64,000 bases of DNA. Source: Zootoca vivipara (lineage: Eukaryota). The stretch is from NCBI RefSeq assembly GCF_963506605.1, contig NC_083284.1, positions 24,924,001-24,988,000 on the forward strand, read 5' to 3'. A program made the position numbers. Shown piece after piece: positions 16,201 through 22,234 of the stretch; position 1 is the stretch's first letter; every line of letters begins with the position of its first letter.

Positions 16201-19200
16201 TGTGTGGGGAATGTTGTCGGCGGAGGACAGAACTAACAACAGTGGAGAAAAATGTCTGACTTGTAACTTGCATTTGGTTCAAATTTTACTCCGGATCCAA
16301 ACTCTTTCATCCCTCCCCACAAACCAAGTTCTAATTATACGTGCAGCAAAAGGAGCTGATAGAGTTCTTGAGGTTCACACTACACCTCATGGACATTCAC
16401 TGAAGCTGAATGTTGTAAGATGCAGGACTGACAAAAGAAAGTACTTCTGCACACAGCATATAATTAAACTATAGAATTTGCTCCCACAAGGAGTAGTGAT
16501 GGCCCCCAACTTGGATGTCTTTGAAAGATGATTTGATAGATTCATGGTGGATAATTCAGCTAGGGTGGTACTTAAGCATTTCAAAAAAAGAGATAAAATA
16601 TATACACACATGCACACACATGAGGGTAAAAGAAGATAGAGATTTACATAAAATGAGCACATGCTAATCTATATGTACAGATGCAAAGAAAGAAATAATG
16701 TGTATTTCTGTAAACCTTAGAGTTCCACCAAGTCTACTGATAGAATCCTCTTGGGTTCAAATGGCAACATTCTGGCTACATAAAGATTGGCATTTGGAGA
16801 ATCAGTCTGTTATTAGTAGAGAGGATGAGCTGTTTGACAGGAAAAAGTAGAGTGGGAGGCTTGGGCAATGGCTCCAGCTCTACCACCTGAATTGCTGATT
16901 GGTGAAATCTTTAGCATTTTTAAAAATGGCTTGCATTCCATGTTAGATTGGAGAAAGGAACTATACTTGTAAAACCCATTTGTGCTTCTCCATTTAGCGG
17001 GGGATAAGCATGCGTATTAAGCCAACTTCCATGTGCAGTGTGTCTCTAGGTAACTCCAGATGAGAGCGATGCATTAAGCATCTTTGCATATATTTGCTCT
17101 ATTATATATGTGCATTATTTATTCTGCCTCTGCTAGTGATAGGAGAGGAAAAGTAAACTCCTCCAATCATGATCAAGGCTGGCCCTAGCATTAGGCAAAG
17201 GGATGCAATGGGCTCTGGTAGCAGTTCCTATTGCCCCCTTTTGTTTCTCTTAAGTCACTGAGCTCTCTGGTTTCTGTATACATGGTATACAAAGGTATCC
17301 TTTGCCTCAGGCTGCAAAATGTATTGAGCCAGCCCTGAAATGTTATATAGTGTCAGAGATTTCACTAGCAAAGTCTAGTAAGATTTTCCTTACCGTTCGG
17401 CAAGGTGATTTTGGTTTTGGTACTATTATCACCATTGCTCCTCCTGACGACAATTTTACCAAACAATTGAATGCACACACTGGTAATTATCATTTGGTAA
17501 ATGGTCAGCCACATAAACCCATGAAGAATTGGATAGCTGTCATAGCGACAGTGGTAACTACCTGCACAACTTTTTTTTTTTTGTAGGGACTTGACATTCT
17601 TCTTGTATATTTGTAGCTTTTCATGTTAAAACTATGTGATGAAGATTATGAAGTCCCATTAATTTCAGCAGGATTGCTCTGGCGTAAATGTTTTAACAGC
17701 ACAACTTTCGAGTAACAGCTAGAAACAGGCTCATGACTCCTAGAGAATCCAAGACTGATTCCCCTTGACAATAGATCTCAGATTCCATCTCTCTCCTTGA
17801 TAGTTTATAGGTACATTTTAGGCTGTTGCCTCAATACATCCTATTTTAATTTTTTTATGGCTGAGTTATAAGCCTCAGGAAAACTGTCTTTTAATGGAAA
17901 GAGGGAGAGACCCTCACATTTAGGAGAAGGCAAAGCTATAATTTTATAGGCATTAGGTATCTAAAATAACTTTGTATAAAGATTACACAGGGATTTGTCC
18001 TCAGTTTTGCAGAAAATACTTAACGTTGAACTATATTTTATGCACACAGAACGACTTACTTTATAAGACAAGTTGATCAGGGATTTACTTTCCAATATTC
18101 AACAATACTATTACCAAAGTGCTTTTTTGACTCTCATAATAGAGCTGTCGTAAGCCATATATTTTAAAAACATCTCATAAACTACATTTATGTAAAAAGT
18201 GGTATGTGGAATAACAACTGTAAGCAGTCTAGATGGAAAGTATGCAAGGCATATTTTTGAGACTGTTTAAGACTGAGTCTTTGGATAAAGACAGTAGGAG
18301 TTTTAAATGTGCACACACAATTAATAGGCAATCAATTATCTTTATTCTTATTTTTCTGCTTGAACAGTTATTATGTATATGGTGACTGGCAGGCATCCAT
18401 GGAAACATGGAAAATATGGGTTTGCTTGGGGACTGGAAGGAATAACACTTCAATTGAATTTACTGAAGGCCATATTTTGTGGTGAGACTTCATGGCTTGT
18501 AAGTAGCAGTTGGGTTGGTTGTACAAACAGTTATGGAGGAAGAAGCACAGTGTAGATTCTGGTTGTGGACAGCAGGCATGTCTCAAGATTTTGCAATGTA
18601 TATCCTGTGATCAGGTGCAAGTCCTGGTGAACCTGAAATCAGGAGTTCATGCAATCTTGTAAATAGTGCAGATTTTGAAACAGTTTTGAAACAGTTTATT
18701 CAACAAGTGGGATCCAAAACAAAATGTTGCATTACATTATCCGCCTAACATCATTACTGTATAATGTTATGGTAATATAGGCTGTTTTGTTTGAAAAAAA
18801 CAAAAATGGGGTCATAAAATGGCATCTACACCACGGTAATTTTGTGATGTGCCTCGCTGTTCAAAACTCAGTTTATAAATATGTAAATAACAAGCAAATA
18901 AGCAAACAGCAAATCAGCCTGAAGGAAGCAACAACTATAGTCCTTTGGCCTGATCTAATAGGATTATTTTTATGAGGGAAAGGGTGAAAGTCTGTGGCTG
19001 GCTTTGGATTCCGGGCGTAATGGAGAAAATCCAGCCCAGAAGTGGTATGTGGGAGACATCTTCCAATGGAGGTGTGAGGAGAGATAATCTGCTACCAGAA
19101 CATAAGGAGGTGTCTGTCATGAGATTCTTTTCATTGAAGGATAGACAAACTGGGAAACTGGGCATCTGAAGAAGTGTGCATGCACACGAAAGCTCATACC

Positions 19201-19378
19201 AAAATATAAACTTAGTTGGTCTTTAAGGTGCTACTGAAGGAATTTTTTTATTTTGCTTCGACTCAGACCAACACGGCTACCTACCTGTAACTGGGAAACT
19301 AGGCTTAGGCAGGTATCACTCTTCCCACAGAATTAAAAAAGAAGTCAAAAGAAGTAAATTTGCTGCTACATACAATAA

Positions 19379-19433
<55 letters not shown>

Positions 19434-22234
19434 AATTTCTACTTAGAGGTTGCCTAACACTGAATAAGAAGCGAGGCAAAAAAAGAAAAAAAAGGGTCAG
19501 CAAGATATTCTGTGGAGATGGAGTTCTTGGAGGGAAGAACTGGGTGACCATTTTGCAATTGCTCTATAGGCGAACTTCTTCCTTCCTATGCCTTTGAAAA
19601 GGAAATGTCATGTCAAAAGGCAGTCGTTTGACTGGCTTGGGAATGTCTGTTAGTGTACAACCAGCACAGCACCTGCAACGGAGGAGGAACTCTCATTAGC
19701 TGAATATTTAAGTGAAGCATCAATTTAGCCACCCATAAATCTGGCAGCAGAGAATGTATAAAACACTGAAGCGATAACGCCGTCCTCAAAATCACTGCCT
19801 TGGCCTTGTTCATATACTAGCAATTAATTATTTTCCAAAATGAGGAATGCAGGGGTGCTTAGATCATTAGTTTTAAAGGCAGAACAGCTCTCTGTGCGAA
19901 CAAGTTATCTTTCCCTTTGTGAAAGGTTAGCTGGGGAGCACGAAGGAGGAAGGTGAATGTTAATAGACAGTAGAGCATCTTCTCCTTAGGTTGAAATGGA
20001 GGCAGGAGCAAGTAAATGTATCTTTCTGTTAGTATCTTTTCTGGCTTTCATTTCATCCTTGTAAAATGGTTGAGCTTTACAAAATCGTGTGATAAAAGTA
20101 TTGGCAAAAGTCACAGATTTTTTTTTTGGGGGGGGCTCCTTACATTATTTAGTATGAACTGGGTGTTTCCTCCTTTGCCCAAAGTGAAATCATCAACTGG
20201 CTAGGAAAGACTGGAAGTAAACTGGTGGCAATGAACAAATTAATGAATATAAAAGTGGTTTGATTGGTTTCAAATTAGCTGTGGGCTTGGAAATTGATTT
20301 CGTTATTAGTATCCCTCTTTTCTCTCTCCTTTTTTTCTTTTTCCTTTTCTTTCCTTCCCCCCCCTTAAATATAAAAATTTGTGTGGATCTATTATATAAG
20401 ATAGGAAATAATCGGTATTGGAATATTAATGAATGAAAGAAATGATTTGTATCAGCGTATATTTTGGAAAATCTAATAAAGACTACTTGTTAAATTAGCT
20501 GTGGAGTAGGGTGAAATTTTCTCTGTACTGTGAGCAAACTTGGGAAACTAACCTGTGCCCAGTCCAAAATTAGAAGGGGTAGGTAAAACGGGAGAGCAAG
20601 AACACACACAACCTAGGGGATTTGGTAATTTTTCCTAGTCCTTTTGACATGTTCTATGCCAGGCATCCCCAAACTTCGGCCCTCCAGATGTTTTGGACTA
20701 CAATTCCCTTCTTCCCCGACCACTGGTCCTGTTAGTTAGGAATCATGGGAGTTGTAGGCCAAAACATCTGGAGGGCCGCAGTTTGGAGATGCCTGCTCTA
20801 TGCTCTCAATTTTGGACAGAAAATACCCATGGGATCTAGAGTAGTTTGTTCCCTTTATCCACTAAAAAAGAGAGGTAAAGGTAAAGGACCCCTGGATGAT
20901 TAAGTCCAGTCAAAGGTAACTATGGGGTGCGGTGCTCATCTCACTTCAGGACAAGGGAGCTGGTGTTTGTCCACAGACAGCTTTCTGGGTCATGTGGCCA
21001 GCATGACTAAACTGCTTCTGGCGCAACGGAACACCGTGACAGAGGCCAGAGCACACGGAAATGCCATTTACCTTCCCACTGCAGTGGTACCTATTTACTG
21101 TGTCTACTTGCACTCATATGCTTTCGAACAGACAGAGCAGACAGAGTAACGGGAGCTCACCCCATCACACAGATTTGAACTGCTGACTTTCCAATCGGCA
21201 GGCCCAAGAGGCTGTGTGGTTTAGAGTGCGTCCCTTTGTCCACTAGGCTATTGCTGGGAGACTGGTGCTAACCAGACCCAAAGCTGAAAAGATTGGTTTA
21301 AGTATCAAGCTGACAGATCATTGAGTCCTGTTACTATAAGCATTCATTTTTTTAAAAGTAAAAGTCAAGTTTCTTGTCCTCATGAATGTAGAATGAAAAT
21401 ATTAAGAAAGGTCCTAGGTGTTAAAGAAAAGATAACACTTTGGAACAGAAATTGTATGCCTGAAGGAGTGTCTCCACCTACATCTGAAGAAGTGTGCATC
21501 CACACGAAAGCTCATACCAAGAACAAACTTATTTGGTCTCCAAGGTACTACTGGACATTTTAATTTTTTTAAAAAAATATATTCCCACCTACATCATTCA
21601 GCCCGGACATTGAGGTCCAGCTCTAAGGGCCTTCTGGTGGCTCCATCACTGAAATAAGTGAAGTTACAGGGAACCAGGCAAAGGGCCTTCTTGGTAGTGG
21701 CATCCGCCCTGTGGAACATCCTCCCACCAGATGGTAAAGAGATAACCAATTATATGACCTTCTGTAGACTTCTGTAGACTCCTGTATCAAGAAGCTTTCT
21801 ATGTTTGATGTATCATGTGTTTTTTATACTTTGTTGGAAGCCACCCAGAGTGACTGGGGCAACCCAGTCAGATGGGCAGCATATAAATAAATTATTATTT
21901 ATTATTATTAAACTGTGAATGCATTGGCTAAGGTGTTTATTTGTTTTCTTTCTTTATCATTACGTTCATACCCCACCTTTCCTCCAAGTTACTCAAGGTG
22001 GTGTACACAGTTCCCCACCTCCCCATTTGTATCCTCACAACACGTGAGGTAAGTTGGGCTCGGAGATTGTGATTGGCCCAAGTTTACTTGGGGGGGGGGG
22101 CTTTGTGGATGAATGGAGTCTCTCAGGTCCTAGTCCACTACATGGCAGTGGTTCTCAAGCCAGTTCTATTACGTCCTTCAGCTTTTGCTACTGATTTCCA
22201 GGTGCTTATGTTATCAGGTACAATATCCTCCTTG

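What the first reader, a model, noticed from the sequence alone, without database searches (positions are those of the whole stretch)
19148..21595. Two tiny, independently inserted Penelope-derived retrocopies that both begin exactly at a hammerhead ribozyme
Seen: 19164-19288 (16-bp TSD) and 21482-21584 (11-bp TSD) both start at ATCTGAAGA, equivalent to position 60704 of the long element, 2 nt before the ribozyme core. They differ downstream (aaaatataaacttagttggtctttaaggtgctactgaagg vs aagaacaaacttatttggtctccaaggtactactggac), so they are separate events, possibly from different subfamilies. Random 5' truncation should not give the same start twice. The start is also not the predicted cleavage site (after 60735). 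In the long copy a TATA-like tacataag (60671-60678) and a C-rich tract (60634-60665) lie ~33 and ~40-70 nt upstream of this position. Inference: 60704 is the pseudo-LTR transcription start, and these 100-125 bp elements are complete reverse transcripts of the ribozyme-headed 5' leader, primed internally at variable 3' positions. That would make them a retrozyme/SINE-like by-product dispersing ribozyme motifs through the genome. Established: Penelope-like elements carry minimal hammerheads in pseudo-LTRs. The shared-start model rests on n=2.
Basis: partly seen in the sequence, partly recalled or inferred. Interest (0 to 1): 0.75.

Follow-up and report, generated by a model that had tools for sequence, protein, structure and literature searches.

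The report
Minimal Penelope retrocopies starting at a hammerhead
Two roughly 100-125-base insertions are stubs of the ribozyme-bearing 3' end of a Penelope-like retrotransposon that has a longer copy nearby; this kind of stub is known, and the one unusual point is that both begin at the same base.

Summary
The window has three independent insertions of one Penelope-like element (PLE) family, each with its own target-site duplication (TSD):
- short1, 19164-19288, TSD 15 of 16.
- short2, 21482/5-21584, TSD 11 of 11. Paralogous copies of the repeat it landed in carry the target site only once.
- A 2.2-kb 5'-truncated copy, 58590-60795, TSD 12-13 bp.

In the long copy the minimal hammerhead sits 190 nt after the stop codon of the RT/GIY-YIG reading frame. 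It is therefore the element's 3'-terminal module, and nothing in this window shows it acting as a 5' leader.

The differing 3' ends match published PLE biology. Reverse transcription starts internally at two adjacent sites, and the stretch between them is an optional 30-40-bp "tail". short1 carries a 34-nt AC-rich tail and the long copy lacks it.

Solitary minimal hammerheads left by truncated PLEs are already described. The only unusual point is that both stubs begin at the same base, 2 nt before the ribozyme core. In short2 that start is uncertain by 3 nt.

The likeliest cause is a template RNA that begins there, made from the promoter in the PLE's 3' UTR. With two cases, no genome and no RNA data, this could not be tested. 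Interest is modest.

The parts
19148..19163 (.). left copy of the short1 target-site duplication (AACTGGGAAACTGGGC)
   Evidence: matches 19289-19304 at 15 of 16; random-interval control
19164..19288 (+). short1: a 125-nt minimal PLE copy. Hammerhead 19164-19199: core CTGAAGA 19166-19172, stem II 19174-19187, C17 at 19195. GTTGGTCT box 19215-19222, T-rich run to 19254, 34-nt tail 19255-19288.
   Evidence: differs from the long copy's module at 2 of 92 columns
19255..19288 (+). 34-nt AC-rich 'tail', present only in short1. AGACCAAC (19265-19272) can pair with GTTGGTCT (19215-19222).
   Evidence: alignment; predicted 8-bp helix, though the whole-unit z-score of +0.47 gives no thermodynamic support. 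Its length matches the 30-40-bp PLE tail and the 34-37-bp repeat of D. virilis Penelope.
19289..19304 (.). right copy of the short1 TSD (AACTGGGAAACTAGGC)
21474..21484 (.). left copy of the short2 TSD (CCACCTACATC). Its last 3 nt overlap the putative element start.
21482..21584 (+). short2: a 100-103-nt minimal PLE copy from a second subfamily. Start is ambiguous between 21482 and 21485. Hammerhead core 21484-21490, C17 at 21513. It has no tail and ends in an AT-rich stretch.
21585..21595 (.). right copy of the short2 TSD
21596..21909 (+). main part of the older dispersed (SINE-like) repeat that short2 inserted into. Its other part is 21453-21484.
   Evidence: the joined flanks are collinear with 44272-44621 (78%) and 27182-27366 (81%, minus strand)
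58577..58589 (.). left copy of the long copy's TSD ((T)AGTCATTCACCA)
   Evidence: score 13
58590..60795 (+). 5'-truncated PLE copy, about 2.2 kb. RT frame 58593 to about 59790, one frameshift near 59787-59792, GIY-YIG frame to the stop at 60512-60514, 3' UTR 60515-60703, hammerhead module 60704-60795.
   Evidence: ORFs; RVT_1 1.8e-12 and GIY-YIG 2.2e-5; 63-70% identical to sea-turtle PLE-containing gene models, starting at residue 402 of P0008 and ending at the natural C-terminus of P0002
60634..60678 (+). promoter-like tract in the 3' UTR: a C-rich run with CCCCACCCC twice (60634-60665) and a TATA-like TACATAAG (60671-60678), 33 nt before 60704
   Evidence: motif resemblance only, no expression data
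60704..60795 (+). 3'-terminal hammerhead module of the long copy. Core 60706-60712, unpaired A 60713, stem II 60714-60727, GAA 60728-60730, AGCT 60731-60734, C17 60735, helix I 3' strand 60736-60739 pairing with 60702-60705. No tail.
60795..60807 (.). right copy of the long copy's TSD

Best explanation
The window holds three independent, dead-on-arrival insertions of one Neptune-type Penelope-like element family, made by target-primed reverse transcription. Every such insertion ends in the same 3' module: a minimal hammerhead, a GTTGGTCT box and a T-rich run.

Shown. All three have TSDs. The module follows the RT/GIY-YIG reading frame. The two stubs are collinear with the last 92 nt of the long copy.

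Inferred from published work. The PLE reverse transcriptase starts internally at one of two fixed sites. Copies therefore end either at the T-rich run (the long copy and, roughly, short2) or 34 nt further on, which adds the AC-rich tail (short1).

Inferred, weakest step. [quoted passage not shown] A promoter in the PLE's 3' UTR starts transcription at or next to the A of ATCTGAAGA. A reverse transcriptase that engages this leader then runs off after only about 90-125 nt.

The resulting stubs lack the upstream promoter-like tract and keep only 2 bp of helix I. They are probably by-products that scatter solitary hammerhead motifs rather than a self-propagating element.
For: - Three copies, three significant TSDs and one empty-site paralogue.
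- PLE identity: RVT_1 and GIY-YIG hits. A CX4CxxC motif (CNKPRCQLC) lies before the GIY-YIG domain. That motif is said to mark Neptune and Nematis PLEs (PMC8557442 passages).
- The module lies 190 nt after the natural stop codon.
- The hammerhead meets the published minimal-hammerhead traits.
- The 3' ends fall 82 nt (long copy) and 115 nt (short1) after the first stem II base. In the Anolis element PAc, the ORF begins at stem II and RT starts 111-118 nt into it. The tail is the stretch between the two RT start sites.
- D. virilis Penelope has a 34-37-bp repeat at its 3' end. [quoted passage not shown]
- 2 of 2 stubs share the start, across two subfamilies. A TATA-like motif lies at -33 and a C-rich tract at -70 to -39.
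Against: - Only two stubs, and short2's start is uncertain by 3 nt. Those 3 nt are microhomology with the target, which is typical of ordinary 5'-truncated joins.
- There is no RNA evidence of any kind.
- The TATA-like motif departs from the textbook consensus. The D. virilis promoter is described as TATA-less and internal, and its start site lies 121 genomic nt before the hammerhead rather than at its edge.
- Predicted folds are no more stable than shuffled sequence (z +0.47 and -0.63).
- short1 carries no extra 5' G, the cap signature sometimes seen on full-length retrocopies (recalled criterion).
- PAc belongs to the Poseidon clade and this element is Neptune-like, so the agreement in coordinates may be partly luck.
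- The main text of PMC11167929 mentions no 5'-end peak. Its supplementary figures are PDFs that I could not read.
Confidence: 0.45

Rival explanations
1. Ordinary 5' truncation. Both stubs are extreme 5'-truncated PLE copies, and the common start is coincidence helped by microhomology at the join.
For: Heavy 5' truncation is the rule for PLEs, and solitary minimal hammerheads are attributed to truncated PLEs. The long copy in this window is itself truncated at an unrelated point. short2's join has 3 nt of microhomology. n = 2.
Against: By my estimate the same base in 2 of 2 stubs has roughly a 1-2% chance under an even spread. The position coincides with the first base of the conserved ribozyme block, and it is shared across two subfamilies.
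Confidence: 0.3
2. A preferred stop or processing point that is not a transcription start. The reverse transcriptase halts, or the RNA is cut, at the 5' edge of the hammerhead block, for example because bound PLE protein or a ribozyme dimer blocks progress.
For: The PLE protein binds RNA just downstream of the hammerhead and assists ribozyme cleavage in vitro. Stem II is a perfect 14-nt palindrome with strong predicted dimerisation: -32.2 kcal/mol against 2 x -7.6.
Against: A polymerase moving 3' to 5' has already passed through the structure before it reaches this point. The long copy reads straight through it. The position is not the ribozyme cut site. Hammerhead mutants did not change insertion size in vitro.
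Confidence: 0.15
3. Solo pseudo-LTRs. Full-length insertions carried the module at both ends and later lost their interior by recombination between the two modules, which leaves one module and the original TSD.
For: Solo pseudo-LTRs are reported for rotifer PLEs (PMC3846280 passages). This route also preserves TSDs.
Against: The repeats would be only about 90-125 nt long. It still requires full-length copies to begin at this base, so it is a variant of the transcription-start reading. No full-length copy is in the window.
Confidence: 0.05
4. An independent non-autonomous element, SINE-like or retrozyme-like, with its own promoter, that borrows the PLE 3' module.
For: The 5' end looks defined, and the 3' end is shared with an autonomous partner. 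D. virilis Penelope has an internal promoter downstream of its start site.
Against: The pol III box test is weak: 76 of 3000 random 125-mers score as well, and the B-box-like match lies only in the tail of short1. There is no tandem arrangement and only one hammerhead per copy, so the circular-RNA route of retrozymes is not open. The module is continuous with the PLE 3' UTR in the long copy.
Confidence: 0.05

Closest known systems
5'-truncated insertions and solo pseudo-LTRs of endonuclease-bearing Penelope-like elements (Neptune type)
   Same: RT plus C-terminal GIY-YIG with a CX4CxxC linker, a hammerhead near the 3' end, TSDs of variable length, heavy 5' truncation and an optional 30-40-bp tail.
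   Different: No tandem or pseudo-LTR arrangement is present in the window. The two smallest copies share one 5' end. None of the texts I read describes that.
PAc, the Poseidon PLE of Anolis carolinensis (Frangieh et al. 2024, PMC11167929)
   Same: The hammerhead lies just upstream of the region where RT starts. There are two adjacent internal start sites, the tail is the stretch between them, and the distances from stem II are similar.
   Different: It belongs to a different clade. In PAc the ORF begins at stem II. Here the same frame is closed by stop codons in 2 of 3 copies and has no protein relatives. The PAc sequence itself was not compared.
Minimal hammerheads of metazoan PLEs (Cervera and De la Pena 2014, PMC4209133)
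   Same: Core boxes, an extra unpaired base after position 9, G10.1-C11.1, a long helix II, a short helix I and a palindromic helix III stub. Most occur as single dispersed motifs.
   Different: No Rfam hammerhead model matches. Self-cleavage was not tested. In the stubs, helix I is cut down to 2 bp.
Non-LTR retrozymes and their 'monomers' (PMC7229834; bioRxiv 10.64898/2026.07.22.740005)
   Same: PLE-related, hammerhead-bearing, non-coding and dispersed. Monomers are described as offspring that cannot transpose.
   Different: Retrozymes are tandem repeats of roughly 150-450 bp, typically carry canonical type I hammerheads, and are expressed as circular RNA. These stubs are single TSD-flanked units with a minimal hammerhead.
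The pseudo-LTR promoter of D. virilis Penelope (Schostak et al. 2008, PMC2377424)
   Same: The promoter lies in the 3' UTR and pseudo-LTR and can fire outward from the 3' end. There is a 34-37-bp terminal repeat.
   Different: Its start site is 121 genomic nt upstream of the hammerhead, its promoter is TATA-less and internal, and an intron lies between them. None of this is seen here.

Membership tests
Penelope-like element, endonuclease-bearing, Neptune type | reverse transcriptase domain | tested here: met
   RVT_1 1.8e-12 on 58593-59888; 70% identity to a turtle PLE-containing model
Penelope-like element, endonuclease-bearing, Neptune type | C-terminal GIY-YIG endonuclease | tested here: met
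   GIY-YIG 2.2e-5, 25.1 bits against a cut-off of 22.6; aligns to the C-terminus of P0002
Penelope-like element, endonuclease-bearing, Neptune type | CX2-5CxxC zinc-finger-like linker before the endonuclease | tested here: met
   CNKPRCQLC in the frame 59654-60514, conserved in P0002. The criterion comes from PMC8557442 passages. No tree was built, so Neptune against Nematis is not resolved.
Penelope-like element, endonuclease-bearing, Neptune type | pseudo-LTR or partial-tandem arrangement | tested here: not met
   No second module lies upstream of the long copy, which is 5'-truncated with its own TSD. Truncated copies are expected to lack this arrangement, so this does not argue against membership.
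Penelope-like element, endonuclease-bearing, Neptune type | optional 30-40-bp tail at an insertion end | tested here: met
   short1 extends 34 nt past the end of the long copy
Minimal hammerhead ribozyme of PLEs | CUGANGA and GAAA core boxes with H17 | tested here: met
   3 of 3 copies; C17
Minimal hammerhead ribozyme of PLEs | unpaired base between positions 9 and 10.1, G10.1-C11.1, palindromic 15.2-16.2 | tested here: met
   A at 60713; G60714 pairs with C60727; AGCT at 60731-60734. Criteria.
Minimal hammerhead ribozyme of PLEs | helix I of 4-5 bp | tested here: inconclusive
   4 bp in the long copy (GTAT with ATAC). Only 2 bp come from the element in both stubs.
Minimal hammerhead ribozyme of PLEs | self-cleavage | not testable with these tools
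   Needs transcription and cleavage assays. Published minimal hammerheads cleave poorly and do so as dimers or with protein help.
Non-LTR retrozyme | tandem repeat units, each with a hammerhead, giving circular RNA | tested here: not met
   Single units 2.2 kb and 39 kb apart, each with its own TSD. Circular RNA cannot be tested here.
SINE | internal pol III promoter (A and B boxes) | tested here: not met
   Best A-box match has 3 mismatches. The B-box match has 2 mismatches and occurs only in short1's tail. 76 of 3000 random 125-mers do as well. The consensus motifs were recalled.
SINE | defined 5' end and a 3' end shared with an autonomous partner | tested here: inconclusive
   The 3' end is shared. 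The 5' end is shared in 2 of 2 stubs, with a 3-nt ambiguity.

The most novel reading that the evidence does not exclude
Every PLE 3' end, including those of truncated copies, fires outward from its 3'-UTR promoter. This makes a hammerhead-headed leader RNA that carries the reverse transcriptase's entry site. Because the enzyme starts at two fixed internal sites, each leader is copied into a unit-length mini-element of about 92 or 125 nt. If so, the thousands of solitary minimal hammerheads reported in vertebrate genomes would largely be a discrete by-product class with defined ends rather than random truncation debris. Starting 2 nt before the core would also trim helix I and so protect the leader from self-cleavage. 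If the promoter is internal, as in D. virilis, the mini-elements could even be transcribed themselves.
Probability: 0.3. Interest if true: 0.6.

Novelty: new member of a known kind. Interest (0 to 1): 0.33.

Why it matters
How PLEs are transcribed and copied is still poorly understood, and the purpose of their hammerheads is unknown. A sharp, genome-wide 5' end at the ribozyme's first base would locate the PLE start site from sequence alone. It would also link the outward-firing promoter known from Drosophila to the internal initiation shown for an Anolis element, and it would explain the abundance of solitary minimal hammerheads. As things stand, this window adds three well-delimited examples, including a clean pair with and without the tail, to an already described phenomenon.

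Tried and rejected
- Rfam. The gathering-threshold scan of the whole window gave 0 matches. The permissive scan of 60650-60850 gave 6 weak matches, none of them a hammerhead. The Rfam models evidently do not cover this helix-III-less form.
- More copies for a 5'-end histogram. One scan of genome contigs (bacteria and archaea) with a degenerate hammerhead pattern gave 0 loci. The allowed second scan was not used, because PLEs are not expected there.
- Other PLE coding fragments in the window. tblastn found only the long copy.
- Does the ORF begin in the hammerhead, as in PAc? The frame from A9 is open through short2 (31 codons) but closed by stops in short1 and the long copy. 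A search of 1.84 billion representative proteins gave one unrelated repeat protein.
- Pol III A and B boxes: no better than background.
- Splice acceptor at the shared start, by analogy with D. virilis: there is no AG before 60704.
- An alternative ribozyme cut at GTA just before the start: helix III cannot form. Checked by eye.
- Thermodynamic support for the structures: none.
- PMC7561263 (passages read) and the one readable supplement of PMC11167929, a list of read sets, held nothing relevant.
- The paper by Lunse and colleagues on dimeric PLE hammerheads, whose title I recalled, is not in the library. The title-phrase search listed other papers that contain the phrase.

Full report
**What is in the sequence**

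A self-search finds three copies of one roughly 90-125-nt module, all on the + strand: 19164-19288, 21482 to about 21571/21584, and 60704-60795. A pattern search for a hammerhead core with a paired stem II returns exactly these three hits on both strands of the 64-kb window.

The window has three N runs, which I left alone. I do not take the window for human. It holds a nearly intact Penelope-type reading frame whose closest named relatives are sea-turtle gene models.

**All three are separate insertions**

- short1 is 125 nt, between AACTGGGAAACTGGGC and AACTGGGAAACTAGGC.
- short2 lies between two copies of CCACCTACATC.
(T)AGTCATTCACCA occurs at 58577/8-58589 and again at 60795/6-60807, so the copy is 58590-60795.

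As a control I scored 5000 random intervals of the same three sizes. Two reached a flanking-repeat score of 10 and none reached 11. The observed scores are 15, 11 and 13.

short2 landed inside an older dispersed repeat. Its flanks, joined without the insert, align continuously with paralogues at 44272-44621 and 27182-27366, and those paralogues carry the target sequence once. The flanks of short1 and of the long copy are unique in the window.

**What the long copy is**

Its two long reading frames hit RVT_1 (1.8e-12) and GIY-YIG (2.2e-5). Four other nearby frames hit nothing.

The frames are 70% and 63% identical to turtle models. The copy begins at residue 402 of P0008, so several hundred codons and the 5' region are missing. 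It ends at the natural C-terminus, and one frameshift lies near 59787-59792.

A CX4CxxC motif precedes the endonuclease. Passages of PMC8557442 give that motif as the mark of Neptune and Nematis PLEs.

The stop codon is at 60512-60514, and the hammerhead module starts 190 nt later and runs to the end of the copy. So in this window the module is the 3' terminus of a 5'-truncated PLE. Nothing in the window shows it acting as a 5' leader.

**The ribozyme**

Reading the long copy:
- core CTGAAGA, 60706-60712
- one unpaired A, 60713
- stem II, 60714-60727
- GAA, 60728-60730
- AGCT, 60731-60734
- C17 at 60735, with predicted cleavage after it
- ATAC at 60736-60739, pairing with GTAT at 60702-60705

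These are the traits that Cervera and De la Pena list for minimal PLE hammerheads: an extra base after position 9, G10.1-C11.1, a palindromic 15.2-16.2, a long helix II and a short helix I (parts 1-2 of 4 read).

Against this, no Rfam hammerhead model matches, and the predicted folds are no better than shuffled sequence. In both stubs only 2 bp of helix I come from the element.

**The 3' ends**

The long copy stops in the T-rich run. short1 continues for 34 more bases, 68% A+C by my count. Within them, AGACCAAC can pair with the conserved GTTGGTCT box.

Frangieh et al. 2024 (main text read) show the following for an Anolis PLE:
- Reverse transcription starts internally at two adjacent sites.
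- The main site lies in an AC-rich stem-loop 111-118 nt after an ORF start that sits at stem II.
- The optional 30-40-bp PLE tail is the stretch between the two sites.

Counted from the first stem II base, the long copy ends at +82 and short1 at +115. D. virilis Penelope has a 34-37-bp repeat at its 3' end (PMC2377424 passages).

One caution: the Anolis element belongs to another clade, and I did not compare its sequence.

short2 ends about 13 nt beyond the T-rich run, in AT-rich sequence that I cannot assign.

**The shared 5' end**

Both stubs begin ATCTGAAGA, 2 nt before the core. In short2 the ATC is also part of the TSD, so its start may be any of four positions, and the join shows 3 nt of microhomology.

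short2 belongs to another subfamily. It differs from the other two copies at 2 of 40 columns in the ribozyme block and at 14 of 52-53 columns downstream (p 0.006-0.011). That pattern also suggests the ribozyme block is conserved in the source elements.

Under an even spread of truncation points over a few hundred bases, I estimate the coincidence at about 1-2%. With two cases this is a lead and not a result.

**Most likely mechanism**

[quoted passage not shown] It holds the promoter, and the 3' pseudo-LTR alone can drive transcription outward. Combined with internal initiation, this predicts short run-off cDNAs that extend from the RT start sites back to the RNA's 5' end.

The long copy does show a C-rich tract and TACATAAG, 33 nt before the shared start.

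Several points weigh against this:
- The D. virilis start site lies 46 nt plus a 75-nt intron upstream of the hammerhead, and its promoter is TATA-less and internal.
- There are no RNA data.
- There is no cap-derived extra G at short1's join.

I put this reading at about 0.45, plain truncation with coincidence at 0.3, and a non-start stop or processing point at 0.15. Solo pseudo-LTRs and an independent SINE-like element get 0.05 each. The last of these is weakened by the pol III box test, in which 76 of 3000 random 125-mers score as well.

**Comparison with what is known**

- Dispersed single minimal hammerheads "probably related to truncated PLEs" were reported in 2014.
- Heavy 5' truncation and the tail are standard PLE features.
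- Solo pseudo-LTRs are described in rotifers.
- A 2026 preprint treats retrozyme monomers and PLE terminal repeats as relatives (abstract, first part of the Results, and Discussion read).

The stubs are not retrozymes, because they have no tandem arrangement and only one minimal hammerhead each. They are new members of a known kind.

In five literature searches and in the texts I read, I saw no statement of a preferred 5' end at the hammerhead. However, the supplementary figures of PMC11167929 (PDF), any supplements of PMC4209133 (which I did not open) and those of the preprint (closed) may bear on this.

From memory only: similar modules are abundant in turtles and crocodilians. I did not test that here.

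**What stayed unchecked**

- Any expression evidence.
- Ribozyme activity.

Noticed in passing
21453-21484 + 21596-21909; 44272-44621; 27182-27366 (-); 22260-22381 (-): A dispersed SINE-like repeat family, 78-81% identical between copies. One copy is the target of the short2 insertion, and the others serve as empty-site paralogues.
   Followed up: partly
60714-60727 and 19174-19187: Stem II of the hammerhead is a perfect 14-nt palindrome. Two RNAs are predicted to form a 14-bp intermolecular duplex (-32.2 kcal/mol against 2 x -7.6). A G-to-C change breaks the palindrome in short2.
   Followed up: partly
21490-21582: The reading frame that starts at hammerhead position A9 stays open for 31 codons through the whole of short2, while stops close it in short1 and the long copy. 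No related protein was found: one unrelated hit in 1.84 billion representatives.
   Followed up: yes
proteins P0001, P0003, P0056, P0058, P0059 (sea-turtle gene models): Several named turtle gene models carry PLE domains alongside others in their precomputed Pfam lists, or carry zinc-finger protein names. In P0003 a long non-PLE N-terminal stretch precedes the PLE part. They may be annotation chimeras or exonised elements.
   Followed up: no
21558-21584: short2 ends in an AT-rich stretch, with about 13 nt beyond the T-rich run where the long copy ends. Whether this is subfamily sequence, an untemplated addition or a third start site is unexplained.
   Followed up: no
19383-19400 and beyond; 63425-63847: A (CT)n microsatellite lies about 80 nt downstream of short1. 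A long run of Glu codons sits at the end of an open frame near the window's 3' end, and no Pfam family was found for that frame or its neighbour.
   Followed up: no
10970-11104, 28614-28753, 30170-30309: Three N runs of 135-140 nt, left as they are.
   Followed up: no
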